Shown: positions 29,151-50,059 of the stretch, one piece after another
Numbering within the stretch: the stretch's first letter is position 1
Layout of the letters: each line of letters begins with the position of its first letter
Source: Escherichia coli
GTDB taxonomy: Bacteria; Pseudomonadota; Gammaproteobacteria; Enterobacterales; Enterobacteriaceae
Reading direction: 5' to 3' (one strand)
Length of the DNA: 64,000 nt
Assembly: GCF_001677475.2 (NCBI RefSeq)
Contig: NZ_CP015229.1
The notes under the pieces: generated by a model
Databases searched by the model: none
Told to the model about the DNA's origin: nothing
Seen by the model: the letters and a program-made list of their open reading frames with translations, nothing else
Program-made: the position numbers and the translations under genes

Positions 29151-29238
29151 AAAATAATATCGAGATATTTTATATACTGATTTTTTTATTATTCGCAAAC
29201 TCAGTAATAAGCTTTACTAATATATTGCAGCTAAACTG

Positions 29239-29262
29239 CTTACCCTGAATATTCAGGGTAAG
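29239..29262. other. Perfect 24-bp palindrome between the maeB stop and the eut promoter region
   Basis: cttaccctgaa-ta-ttcagggtaag is exactly self-complementary; no U-run follows on either strand. Confidence 0.5.
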
Positions 29263-29280
29263 CGTGAGAGTTAAAAAAAA

Positions 29281-34917: not shown

Positions 34918-35961
34918 TTAACGGGTGATCCACAACGTGGGCCAGGCGTCTGGCCCATGCCAGTTATCGCAGGTGGGTTCTGCGGCGTAACGCACCAGGC
35001 GAAAACGCTGACCGTCAAAGCGCCAGCGCGCCTGAATGCCACAATCGCTTAATCCGCGCCCTTTCGCTAAGGTCACCAGTTCACGCGATTTCTCATCAAA
35101 TGTTGCGTTCATCAGTTCCAGTTCATTCGTCTCCTGACCGTTGTTGAACGGCAAACGCAACCGAACCGGGCGCGAGGCCAGCGGCTTTTTACGCGACACA
35201 ATCCATGCCAAATCAATGGTGTTATAGGCCCCTGCCTCACAGCTAATCATCATCAGCGCTTTATCATCAGTCAGCGCAGTGACATTCACCTCACGACGCA
35301 ATGGATCAAGCGAGCAGCGCAGACCATTCATCCGCCAGTTTCCATAATCCAGCAAATCGTTGCGTTCTTCGAGTGAGAGTGGCGTCGGCGTTGGGTTAAC
35401 CACCACAACCTCTTTCAGCGCAGGCGCGGGCGGTACGCTGAGCGGCGGTTCGTCCCCTTTCTTGATCCAGGCGGTTTCACTGCCAACGCGCTTTTGCTGA
35501 GCATCAATAAACAACAACGCCGCTTTTAAGCCGCTCAGAGAAATGGTCTGATTGCCGTCGCGTAAGGTGATCGCCTTCCCTTCCTGAATTATCTGCAAAA
35601 ACGCGGTGATGGTTGCCGTATCATCGGTTACTAATAACCATGGTGAAATCCGCCACTTGTCACCACTTAACGCCAACGGCTCACCATCTAACAGCAGCCG
35701 TGGCGCTATCTCCCCTTCAGACGCATCCGGCGACTTCAACCCGCCGCGCTCAATACGTAAAACGGCATCAGTATGCGCCCCGGCGCTGCGGCTCAGGGTC
35801 ATCACCAGTCCATTATGATCGCCCGTATTGCGCGCCACACAAAAATTTTGATTATTACAGGTGACCTGCCAGTCGGAAAACGCCTGTTGCGCTGGTGCCG
35901 CCCACACCAAAGACGTCGGCAACAAAGCGAAAAAAAAGAGAAGGAAAATGCGATAGCGCAT
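34918..35961 (-). CDS. ypfG: DUF1176 family protein with signal peptide, function unknown
   Basis: 347 aa with N-terminal signal sequence (LLFFFALLPTSLVWA); matches YpfG. Confidence 0.88.
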   Translation of the reverse strand: MRYRIFLLFFFALLPTSLVWAAPAQQAFSDWQVTCNNQNFCVARNTGDHNGLVMTLSRSAGAHTDAVLRIERGGLKSPDASEGEIAPRLLLDGEPLALSGDKWRISPWLLVTDDTATITAFLQIIQEGKAITLRDGNQTISLSGLKAALLFIDAQQKRVGSETAWIKKGDEPPLSVPPAPALKEVVVVNPTPTPLSLEERNDLLDYGNWRMNGLRCSLDPLRREVNVTALTDDKALMMISCEAGAYNTIDLAWIVSRKKPLASRPVRLRLPFNNGQETNELELMNATFDEKSRELVTLAKGRGLSDCGIQARWRFDGQRFRLVRYAAEPTCDNWHGPDAWPTLWITR

Positions 35962-36086
35962 GGACGGTACGACCCCAGAAGTTCAAACAAACAGCACAAG
36001 TCGTATCTTCGTTGCGCAGGTAACGTGGCTCAATCGGATTTGTCGGATTGAGCCAATAATAAACAACGAAATATTATTGTTATTTT

Positions 36087-36662
36087 TCAGTCCATTAAAT
36101 GTGACATTTGCAAATAGTTAAGCAATAACACCGTCTTACCGTCACGTATCTCGCCGGTTTTGATCATCTCCAGCGCCTGGCTGAACGGCAGCTCGAGCAC
36201 TTCAATATCTTCATCTTCGACACCGCCACCGGCGTTAGCGCGCTGATTGTCACTGTATTCGGCGATAAAAAAGTGGATTAGCTCAGTCACACCGCCTGGC
36301 GACATATACAGTTCAAATAATTTGCGCACTTCGCCCACTTCATAGCCCGTCTCTTCAATCGCTTCTTTGCGAATGCACACTTCCGGTTCGTCGTTATCCA
36401 GCAGCCCGGCGCAGGTTTCAATCAGCAGCCCGGTTTCATTGCCATTAACCCAGGTAGCGACACGGAACTGGCGAATCAGAACCACCGTCTTTTTCTTCGC
36501 GTTGTACAGGAGGATCGTCGCACCATTACCGCGATCGTAAACTTCACGTTTATGGCGGATAACTTCGCCATCTTTGCGCGTGAGATCGTAAGTAATGTTG
36601 TGCAGGGTGAAATAGTTATCGGAGAGAATTTTGTCTTTAATGAGGGTGATTTGTTGCGTCAT
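36087..36662 (-). CDS. nudK: GDP-mannose pyrophosphatase (Nudix hydrolase)
   Basis: 191 aa from [15 protein letters not shown] with a Nudix box; matches NudK. Confidence 0.9.
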
Positions 36663-43892: not shown

Positions 43893-43899
43893 GCAATAA

Positions 43900-43931
43900 A
43901 AAAGGCGACATGCCAATGTGTCGCCTTTTTC
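43900..43931. terminator. Bidirectional rho-independent terminator (acrD on plus, ypfM on minus)
   Basis: aaaaaggcgaca-tgccaatg-tgtcgccttttt: perfect stem flanked by an A-run and a T-run. Confidence 0.75.
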
Positions 43932-50006: not shown

Positions 50007-50033
50007 GAGAGCGGTTGTCTTGCCGTGCCAGCT
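50007..50033. other. Perfect 11-bp-stem hairpin just downstream of purC
   Basis: tcttgccgtgc-cagct-gcacggcaaga; no U-run follows on the minus strand, so not a canonical intrinsic terminator. Confidence 0.5.
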
Positions 50034-50059
50034 GCACGGCAAGATGATGAACAGAAAAA

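What the first reader, a model, noticed from the sequence alone, without database searches (positions are those of the whole stretch)
36034..36061. 28-bp inverted repeat between ypfG and nudK
ggctcaatc-(10 nt)-gattgagcc forms a 9-bp stem in the ypfG upstream / nudK downstream spacer. It is not followed by a U-run, so it is a candidate operator or RNA structure rather than a canonical terminator.
Basis: seen in the sequence. Interest (0 to 1): 0.15.

Follow-up and report, generated by a model that had tools for sequence, protein, structure and literature searches.

The report
Likely RcsB activator site at ypfG promoter
The inverted repeat between nudK and ypfG is real, but it is most likely an ordinary binding site for the envelope-stress regulator RcsB joined to the -35 element of the ypfG promoter, not a terminator or a conserved RNA structure.

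Summary
The repeat exists but lies at 36026-36055, about 7 nt left of the stated coordinates. It has a perfect 10-bp stem, or 13-nt arms with one mismatch. Repeats this good are rare in the window.

A published 5'-end map puts a ypfG transcription start at window 35997 (- strand). The repeat therefore spans -58 to -29, upstream of that start.

Across 66 Enterobacteriaceae upstream regions, three blocks are near-invariant:
- ATCCGA-N4-TCCGA (-51..-37)
- TTGAG (-36..-32)
- GAAGATAC (-13..-6)

The outer stem bases of the E. coli hairpin are not kept outside Escherichia, and nothing covaries.

The 14-mer TCCGACAAATCCGA fits the published RcsB homodimer box TN(G/A)GAN4TC(T/C)NA at 6 of 7 specified positions. 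It abuts the -35 hexamer just as the crystallographically defined RcsB box of rprA does.

ypfG behaves like an Rcs regulon gene:
- 38-44-fold up with a LolCDE inhibitor
- up with colicin M and with complement
- 4.6-fold down in an rcsB-disrupted strain

No direct binding data were found.

Verdict: a probable, ordinary RcsB-activated promoter. It is a new member of a known kind and of low interest. The Escherichia-specific extension of the palindrome remains unexplained.

The parts
36026..36055 (.). Inverted repeat in its full form: 13-nt arms with one mismatch and a 4-nt centre. On the ypfG strand it reads TGGCTCAATCCGA-CAAA-TCCGATTGAGCCA, at -58..-29 relative to the P1 start.
   Evidence: The outer 5 pairs are kept in only 8-34 of 66 species.
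36034..36047 (-). RcsB-box-like 14-mer TCCGACAAATCCGA, at -50..-37 and centred at -43.5. This is the conserved core of the repeat.
   Evidence: Matches TN(G/A)GAN4TC(T/C)NA (PMC7913699) at 6 of 7 specified positions. Those 6 are invariant, or C/T where Y is specified, in 66 species. The architecture is present in 68 of 80 loci.
36028..36033 (-). -35 hexamer TTGAGC of ypfG P1. It is also the inner part of the promoter-proximal arm of the repeat.
   Evidence: TTGAG is invariant in 65-66 of 66 species. It sits 17 nt upstream of GAAGAT and -36..-31 from the mapped TSS.
36003..36010 (-). Conserved block GAAGATAC, holding the weak -10 element of P1 (GAAGAT at -13..-8).
   Evidence: 60-66 of 66 species conserved per column. 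Its distance to the mapped TSS fits a -10 element.
35997..35997 (-). Mapped transcription start of ypfG P1, giving a 36-nt 5' UTR.
   Evidence: PMC3415461 supplementary file 2, NC_000913.2 position 2580835 on the - strand, 14 reads, with the upstream 51-mer printed. A 36-nt distance is also listed in PMC10469882 Table S5.
34918..35961 (-). ypfG coding sequence (DUF1176, signal-peptide protein), the gene controlled.
36087..36662 (-). nudK coding sequence (GDP-mannose pyrophosphatase), the upstream neighbour. Its stop codon lies 32 nt from the repeat.
36064..36076 (-). Second, upstream ypfG start (103-nt UTR, window 36064) with a -10-like TAATAT at 36076..36071. Its transcript would carry the repeat at +10..+39.
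   Evidence: Distances 103 and 116 are listed in PMC10469882 Table S5. The -10 was read from the sequence.
36048..36077 (+). Mirror-image promoter-like site, predicted only: TTGAGC (the distal arm of the repeat), an 18-nt spacer, then TATTAT. It points into the 3' end of nudK on the antisense strand.
   Evidence: Promoter scan, 9 of 12 matches. No TSS evidence was found.

Best explanation
The repeat is the two-fold symmetric footprint of a dimeric activator site joined to a promoter.

Proposed mechanism: when the cell envelope is damaged, the Rcs phosphorelay phosphorylates RcsB. An RcsB dimer binds the 14-bp pseudo-palindrome TCCGACAAATCCGA at -50..-37. This box touches the -35 hexamer TTGAGC of ypfG promoter P1. 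From there RcsB helps sigma-70 RNA polymerase use a promoter with a poor -10 (GAAGAT), switching ypfG on strongly.

The long E. coli palindrome arises because the flank upstream of the box (GGCTCAA) happens to be, or has been selected to be, complementary to the -35 region (TTGAGCC). Only the inner part, ATCCGA-N4-TCCGAT, is conserved.

Shown: the sequence, the start site, the conservation pattern, and the Rcs-like expression of ypfG. Inferred: that RcsB is the protein that binds, and that it acts by recruiting polymerase.
For: 1. Start site. The mapped TSS places the box at -50..-37, TTGAGC at -36..-31 and GAAGAT at -13..-8.

2. Conservation in 66 species.
- Box positions T1, G4, A5, T10, C11 and A14 are invariant.
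- Position 12 is only C or T, matching the consensus Y.
- Three of the four N4 positions and position 13 vary.
- The 17-nt spacer is unconserved, while the -35 and -10 blocks are near-invariant.
- 68 of 80 loci keep the order box, -35, 16-19 nt, -10.

3. Match to the published box. It fits the RcsB homodimer box TN(G/A)GAN4TC(T/C)NA (PMC7913699).

4. Same geometry as rprA. In E. coli, rprA reads TGAGACGAATCTGA|TCGACG|17 nt|TACTAT|6 nt|+1. That 14-mer lies within the DNA co-crystallised with RcsB-P, -33 to -53. The ypfG box matches the rprA box at 10 of 14 positions.

5. An independent left half. In Pluralibacter-type loci the left half is a different sequence (ATGGA, overlapping the end of nudK). 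It still has the RGA of the consensus.

6. Expression of ypfG.
- +37.6 and +44.2-fold with a LolCDE inhibitor, listed among osmB, ycfJ, bdm, wca genes, ypeC, ygaC and rcsA.
- -4.58-fold in an rcsB-disrupted O157:H7 isolate, together with ycfJ and ypeC.
- Induced by colicin M alongside osmB, spy and ygdI.
- Induced by complement together with ycfJ, ygaC and fepE.
Against: - No binding, footprint or ChIP data for RcsB at ypfG were found in the searchable literature.
- Box position 3 is C in nearly all species, where the consensus wants G or A. A strict consensus search would therefore miss the site.
- The relaxed pattern is common by chance: 9.7 expected per 64 kb, 3 found. The match alone proves little; the weight rests on position, conservation and expression.
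- The expression data are not RcsB-specific. The LolCDE inhibitor also induces Cpx genes, and the effect could be indirect.
- The two halves are also a direct repeat (TCCGA...TCCGA), which another type of regulator could read.
- GAAGATAC is more strictly conserved than a weak -10 needs to be.
Confidence: 0.72

Rival explanations
1. It acts as an RNA hairpin. It would sit in the nudK 3' UTR or read-through transcript, or near the 5' end of the longer ypfG mRNA that starts 103-116 nt upstream. There it would act as a stabiliser, a weak or Rho-assisting terminator, or an insulator between nudK and ypfG.
For: - The fold is stable: -17 kcal/mol, z = -4.56.
- TSSs at 103 and 116 nt upstream of the ATG are reported, so some transcripts contain it at about +10..+39.
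- No other terminator lies between nudK and ypfG.
Against: - The outer 5 pairs are kept in only 8-34 of 66 species, with no compensatory change. The inner pairs are invariant on both sides and so carry no information.
- No U-run follows it.
- No Rfam family reaches its threshold.
- The searchable Term-seq tables list no nudK 3' end.
- It lies upstream of the P1 start.
Confidence: 0.1
2. It is the site of a different DNA-binding protein. One option is a repressor operator; another is a regulator that reads the direct repeat ATCCGA-N3-ATCCGA. Fur, which was predicted for ypfG in the literature, is a further candidate.
For: - PMC4145685 predicted a Fur box upstream of ypfG.
- Box position 3 is an invariant C, not the RcsB consensus purine.
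- The two halves form a direct repeat.
Against: - The best match to the 19-bp Fur consensus anywhere in the spacer is 11 of 19. Two of the three tied 11/19 windows lie in the AT-rich, non-conserved segment upstream; the third (36046-36064) overlaps the distal arm of the repeat.
- The genes co-induced with ypfG by complement (ycfJ, ygaC, fepE) are Rcs-type genes in other data sets.
- A site at -50..-37 abutting the -35 is an activator position, not a repressor position.
Confidence: 0.1
3. It is a symmetric, two-way RcsB-dependent promoter specific to Escherichia. The same bound dimer would also fire the mirror promoter on the + strand and produce an antisense RNA over the 3' end of nudK.
For: - The distal arm gives an identical TTGAGC hexamer on the + strand, 18 nt from TATTAT.
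- Eight extra complementary bases flanking the 14-mer box (TGGCTCAA against TTGAGCCA) are unlikely by chance.
- nudK hydrolyses GDP-mannose, a colanic-acid precursor, and colanic acid synthesis is Rcs-induced (annotation; pathway link from general knowledge).
Against: - No + strand TSS is listed near there among the gene-assigned TSSs of PMC3415461.
- The extension is confined to Escherichia, whose members are too closely related for its conservation to be informative.
- The idea rests on sequence alone.
Confidence: 0.08

Closest known systems
RcsB box of the rprA promoter (RcsB-P homodimer site, co-crystallised; PMC7913699)
   Same: - A 14-bp pseudo-palindrome of the form T-N-N-G-A-N4-T-C-Y-N-A.
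- It directly abuts the -35 hexamer, followed by a 17-nt spacer and the -10. The box lies at -49..-36 in rprA and -50..-37 in ypfG.
- 10 of 14 bases are identical.
- The downstream gene is induced by envelope stress.
   Different: - Position 3 is C in ypfG, not a purine.
- The -10 is much weaker (GAAGAT against TACTAT).
- No binding experiment exists for ypfG.
- In E. coli the symmetry extends 8 bp beyond the box on each side, which rprA lacks.
RcsB-dependent promoters of osmB, osmC and bdm
   Same: A GA-N4-(T/C)C-type 14-mer sits immediately upstream of a -35-like hexamer with a 17-nt spacer. Read, the sequences are:
- osmB: TAAGATGATTCCTG|GTTGAT
- bdm: CAGGACTAATCTTA|ACAACG
- osmC: TCGGAATATCCTGC|TTATCC
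osmB and bdm are co-induced with ypfG.
   Different: Which of these 14-mers is the experimentally defined box rests on my recollection of the older literature. It was not checked with the tools.
Rho-independent terminator
   Same: A GC-containing hairpin downstream of a gene (nudK).
   Different: No U-tract follows it, the terminator scan did not detect it, no 3' end has been mapped there, and the stem is not conserved.
Fur box (published prediction for ypfG, PMC4145685)
   Same: An AT-rich, Fur-like sequence lies in the same spacer.
   Different: The best match is 11 of 19. Two of the three tied best windows are upstream of the repeat and one overlaps its distal arm. None lies in a segment conserved between genera for Fur-like sequence.

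Membership tests
RcsB homodimer-activated sigma-70 promoter (RcsB box) | 14-bp box TN(G/A)GAN4TC(T/C)NA | tested here: inconclusive
   TCCGACAAATCCGA meets 6 of 7 specified positions; position 3 is C. The relaxed pattern is frequent by chance, with 9.7 expected per 64 kb.
RcsB homodimer-activated sigma-70 promoter (RcsB box) | Box placed immediately upstream of, and abutting, the -35 hexamer of a mapped promoter, as in rprA | tested here: met
   ypfG box at -50..-37 from the mapped TSS. rprA box at -49..-36 from the annotated 5' end.
RcsB homodimer-activated sigma-70 promoter (RcsB box) | Selective constraint falls on the consensus positions and not on the degenerate ones | tested here: met
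   T1, G4, A5, T10, C11 and A14 are invariant. Position 12 is C or T only. N4 and position 13 vary, and the spacer is unconserved. Exception: positions 2-3 are also conserved.
RcsB homodimer-activated sigma-70 promoter (RcsB box) | The downstream gene is induced by Rcs activation and depends on rcsB | tested here: met
   Literature transcriptomes: +38 to +44-fold with a LolCDE inhibitor, -4.58-fold in an rcsB-disrupted strain, and induced by colicin M. These are correlative and not promoter-specific.
RcsB homodimer-activated sigma-70 promoter (RcsB box) | Direct binding of phosphorylated RcsB (EMSA, footprint or ChIP) | not testable with these tools
   No such data were found in the searchable papers.
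Intrinsic (Rho-independent) terminator | GC-rich hairpin followed directly by a U-run | tested here: not met
   No T-run follows the stem on either strand, and the scan finds no terminator at the repeat.
Conserved structured RNA element | Base pairs maintained across species, with compensatory changes, or a match to a known RNA family | tested here: not met
   The outer pairs are broken in most species and there are no double changes. The only Rfam hit is sau-13 at 20.7 bits against a gathering score of 55, E = 2.2.
Fur box | Close match to the 19-bp consensus GATAATGATAATCATTATC, conserved in orthologous promoters | tested here: not met
   The best match is 11 of 19, and the AT-rich segment upstream of the repeat, which holds two of the three tied best windows, is not conserved between genera.
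Repetitive extragenic palindrome or other dispersed repeat | Many copies per genome | tested here: not met
   One place per genome (median 1) in 5,425 E. coli genomes. The 20-mer core is unique in the window.

The most novel reading that the evidence does not exclude
In Escherichia the RcsB site may have been extended into a perfectly symmetric unit carrying the same -35 hexamer (TTGAGC) on both strands. One bound RcsB dimer would then drive ypfG in one direction. In the other direction it would drive an antisense RNA across the 3' end of nudK, through TTGAGC, an 18-nt spacer and TATTAT on the + strand. Because NudK destroys GDP-mannose, this could spare the precursor for Rcs-induced colanic acid synthesis.
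Probability: 0.08. Interest if true: 0.55.

Novelty: new member of a known kind. Interest (0 to 1): 0.2.

Why it matters
This reading would give a poorly characterised, widely conserved periplasmic protein gene (ypfG, DUF1176) a defined promoter and a direct link to the Rcs envelope-stress response.

It would also correct a published assignment of ypfG to Fur.

It illustrates that a strict consensus search can miss a deeply conserved RcsB-type site whose one half deviates (CGA in place of RGA).

Beyond that, it is an ordinary activator site.

Tried and rejected
- **Rfam scan of the region:** only a sub-threshold chance hit.
- **Terminator scan:** nothing at the repeat.
- **Fur box:** best match 11 of 19; two of the three tied best windows lie in non-conserved DNA upstream of the repeat and one overlaps its distal arm.
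- **Sigma-54 site reported for Salmonella ypfG:** it lies inside the gene and is unrelated to the repeat.
- **Other regulator sites:** I compared the sequence by eye with mar/sox/rob, LacI-type, PdhR and FadR consensus sequences recalled from memory. None fitted the conserved bases. These comparisons were not run with tools.
- **- strand promoter from the scan:** ATAACA/16/TATTAT at 36083..36056 would start inside the box, but none of the listed TSS distances (36, 103, 116, 249) corresponds to it.
- **Cappable-seq supplement for MG1655 (PMC4782308):** no searchable positions.
- **Thomason 2015 and Laubacher & Ades 2008:** not held in the library.
- **Supplement of PMC7913699:** not held, so I could not see whether Salmonella ypfG responds to the RcsB variants.
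- **Megablast of the 38-nt repeat against E. coli genomes:** uninformative for polymorphism because of the 28-nt word requirement. Replaced by direct comparison of six strains.

Full report
**Context.** The window is E. coli chromosome. The 301 bases around the finding match 5,425 of 5,426 complete E. coli genomes at 95-100% identity, between ypfG (DUF1176 protein) and nudK (GDP-mannose pyrophosphatase). Both genes are on the - strand, in the order aegA, nudK, ypfG, with tktB convergent. ypfG is 34918-35961 and nudK is 36087-36662, which leaves a 125-bp spacer. Window position x corresponds to position x + 2,546,816 in a K-12 record with MG1655 (NC_000913.3) numbering.

**The observation.** The repeat is real but sits at 36026-36055, about 7 nt left of the stated coordinates. 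On the ypfG strand it reads TGGCTCAATCCGA CAAA TCCGATTGAGCCA.
- Its perfect stem is 10 bp. Only four loci in the 64-kb window have a perfect stem of at least 10 bp with a loop of 12 nt or less, against about 0.6 hits in block shuffles.
- As RNA it would fold at -17 kcal/mol, z = -4.56.
- No T-run follows it, and the terminator scan is silent there.
- No Rfam family reaches its threshold.
- The element is single-copy in each genome.

**Position relative to transcription.** Kim et al. 2012 (PMC3415461, supplementary file 2) list a ypfG start at NC_000913.2 position 2580835 on the - strand. It has 14 reads and a 36-nt UTR. They print the upstream 51-mer TCCGACAAATCCGATTGAGCCGCGCTACCTGCGCAACGAAGATACGACTTG. 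This corresponds to window 35997. The layout on the - strand is therefore:
- 14-mer TCCGACAAATCCGA at -50..-37
- TTGAGC at -36..-31
- a 17-nt spacer
- GAAGAT at -13..-8

The repeat covers -58..-29, so it is promoter DNA for this start and not part of that mRNA.

A second source is PMC10469882 Table S5, which compares EDL933 Cappable-seq with RegulonDB MG1655 TSSs. It lists ypfG start-to-ATG distances of 36, 103 and 249 in one set and 103 and 116 in the other. I could not establish which set belongs to which strain. An upstream promoter therefore also exists, with its start near 36064 and a -10-like TAATAT at 36076..36071. Its transcript would contain the repeat.

**Conservation.** I aligned the ypfG upstream regions from 65 other Enterobacteriaceae species with the window sequence. 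The genera include Escherichia, Citrobacter, Salmonella, Enterobacter, Leclercia, Kosakonia, Phytobacter and Lelliottia, with YpfG protein identity down to about 65%. Per-column counts show three near-invariant blocks in otherwise free sequence:
- A-51 T C C G A-46 together with T-41 C-40 and A-37
- TTGAG at -36..-32
- GAAGATAC at -13..-6

Inside the 14-mer, three of the four central bases vary. Position -39 is only C or T, and position -38 is G or T. The 17-nt spacer between TTGAGC and GAAGAT is unconserved but constant in length. This is the signature of a protein site plus -35 and -10 elements. A pattern search finds box, -35, 16-19 nt and -10 in 68 of 80 loci. Most of the remaining loci keep the box with a variant -10, and a few are truncated or showed no recognisable box upstream.

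By contrast, the five outer pairs of the E. coli hairpin (-58..-54 with -33..-29) form Watson-Crick pairs in only 8-34 of 66 sequences. They show no compensatory changes, because the 3' partners are the fixed -35 bases. The long palindrome is therefore an Escherichia feature. Within E. coli it is essentially invariant.

**Identity of the site.** Huesa et al. 2021 (PMC7913699) define the RcsB homodimer box as TN(G/A)GAN4TC(T/C)NA, from crystal structures with rprA and flhDC DNA and from EMSA. TCCGACAAATCCGA meets 6 of the 7 specified positions. The exception is position 3, which is C.

The positions that vary among species are the ones the consensus leaves free or degenerate, except that positions 2 and 3 are also fixed.

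The E. coli rprA promoter reads TGAGACGAATCTGA|TCGACG|17 nt|TACTAT|6 nt|+1. This is the same architecture, with the box abutting the -35. The ypfG and rprA boxes share 10 of 14 bases. The osmB, bdm and osmC upstream regions show similar 14-mers directly before a -35-like hexamer. Which of those 14-mers are the published boxes is from my memory of the literature.

In Pluralibacter-type loci the left half of the box is replaced by ATGGA, which overlaps the end of nudK. That sequence restores the consensus purine-G-A and is a small independent sign of what is being selected.

The relaxed pattern alone is not significant: 3 matches in the window against 9.7 expected. The argument rests on where the match lies, how it is conserved and how the gene behaves.

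**Expression.**
- ypfG rises 37.6- and 44.2-fold with a LolCDE inhibitor. It is listed among osmB, ycfJ, bdm, wca genes, ypeC, ygaC and rcsA (PMC5105897).
- It falls 4.58-fold in an O157:H7 isolate with a disrupted rcsB, together with ycfJ and ypeC (PMC5343319).
- It is induced by colicin M alongside osmB, spy and ygdI (PMC3599342 supplement).
- It is induced by complement together with ycfJ, ygaC and fepE (PMC4145685).

The authors of the complement study attributed ypfG to Fur on the basis of a predicted box. The best Fur-consensus match in the spacer is only 11 of 19, and two of the three tied best windows lie in the non-conserved AT-rich part. The co-induced genes point to Rcs instead.

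**Mechanism proposed.** RcsB-P binds as a dimer at -50..-37 and activates sigma-70 RNA polymerase at a promoter with a reasonable -35 and a poor -10. The proximal outer part is the -35 hexamer. The distal outer part is an Escherichia-specific flank complementary to it. RcsB binding and the activation mechanism are inferred, not shown. My confidence is about 0.7.

**Rivals.**
- RNA hairpin. It would be present in nudK read-through transcripts or P2-derived ypfG transcripts. The fold is stable, but the stem is not conserved, lacks a U-run and has no mapped 3' end in the Term-seq tables I could search.
- Another DNA-binding protein. This is possible because position 3 deviates and the halves also form a direct repeat, but no candidate fitted.
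- Two-way promoter. The distal arm gives an identical TTGAGC on the + strand, 18 nt from TATTAT, aimed antisense into nudK. This is attractive because NudK degrades a colanic-acid precursor, but it has no transcript evidence.

**Verdict.** This is a real repeat and an ordinary explanation: a probable RcsB-activated promoter that I could not find described for ypfG. It is a new member of a known kind and of low interest. One loose end remains, the Escherichia-specific extension of the symmetry.

Noticed in passing
window 36064-36089, both strands: The AT-rich stretch between the nudK stop codon and the repeat holds overlapping -10-like hexamers on opposite strands: TAATAT on the - strand at 36076..36071 and TATTAT on the + strand at 36072-36077. 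Reported ypfG starts at 103 and 116 nt upstream of the ATG fall here. It looks like a possible bidirectional promoter.
   Followed up: partly
L020, L025, L029, L031 and others, about 13 nt upstream of the main box (locus positions around 2400-2413): In 16 loci from Enterobacter, Leclercia, Kosakonia and relatives, a second RcsB-like 14-mer (for example TCAGATAAATCTAT) lies in tandem 13 nt upstream of the conserved box. Escherichia lacks it and has the palindromic flank there instead.
   Followed up: partly
L073, L076, L077, locus positions around 2387-2440: In Pluralibacter-type loci the nudK stop codon lies inside the left half of the box (ATGGACTAATCCGA), so the spacer between the genes is almost gone. 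L073 is titled Chryseobacterium, but its sequence in this region is nearly identical to that of the Enterobacteriaceae-labelled loci L076 (Pluralibacter) and L077 (Citrobacter); the record may be mislabelled or contaminated.
   Followed up: no
window 43899-43930: A perfect 12-bp palindrome flanked by A and T runs (AAAAAGGCGACATGCCAATGTGTCGCCTTTTT). It looks like a two-way intrinsic terminator.
   Followed up: no
window 29238-29263 and 50018-50044: Two further perfect 11-bp inverted repeats, GCTTACCCTGAATATTCAGGGTAAGC and TCTTGCCGTGCCAGCTGCACGGCAAGA. Their nature was not examined.
   Followed up: no
window ~34962 (+ strand), inside the 3' end of ypfG: Adams et al. 2021 list an RNA 3' end at MG1655 position 2581778 on the + strand, antisense to ypfG. 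It follows a GGGCCAGGCGTCTGGCCC hairpin and is presumably the tktB terminator lying within the convergent ypfG coding sequence.
   Followed up: no
window 35956-35973 with 36000-36017: A weaker inverted repeat (18-nt arms, 78% complementary) pairs the ypfG start-codon region with the -10 region of P1. Only part of it is transcribed from P1.
   Followed up: no
literature: PMC4145685 Table 3: The 'complement-dependent' up-regulated genes assigned partly to Fur (ypfG, ygaC, ycfJ, fepE) are mostly genes that other data sets tie to Rcs. The complement response may therefore be an Rcs response.
   Followed up: partly
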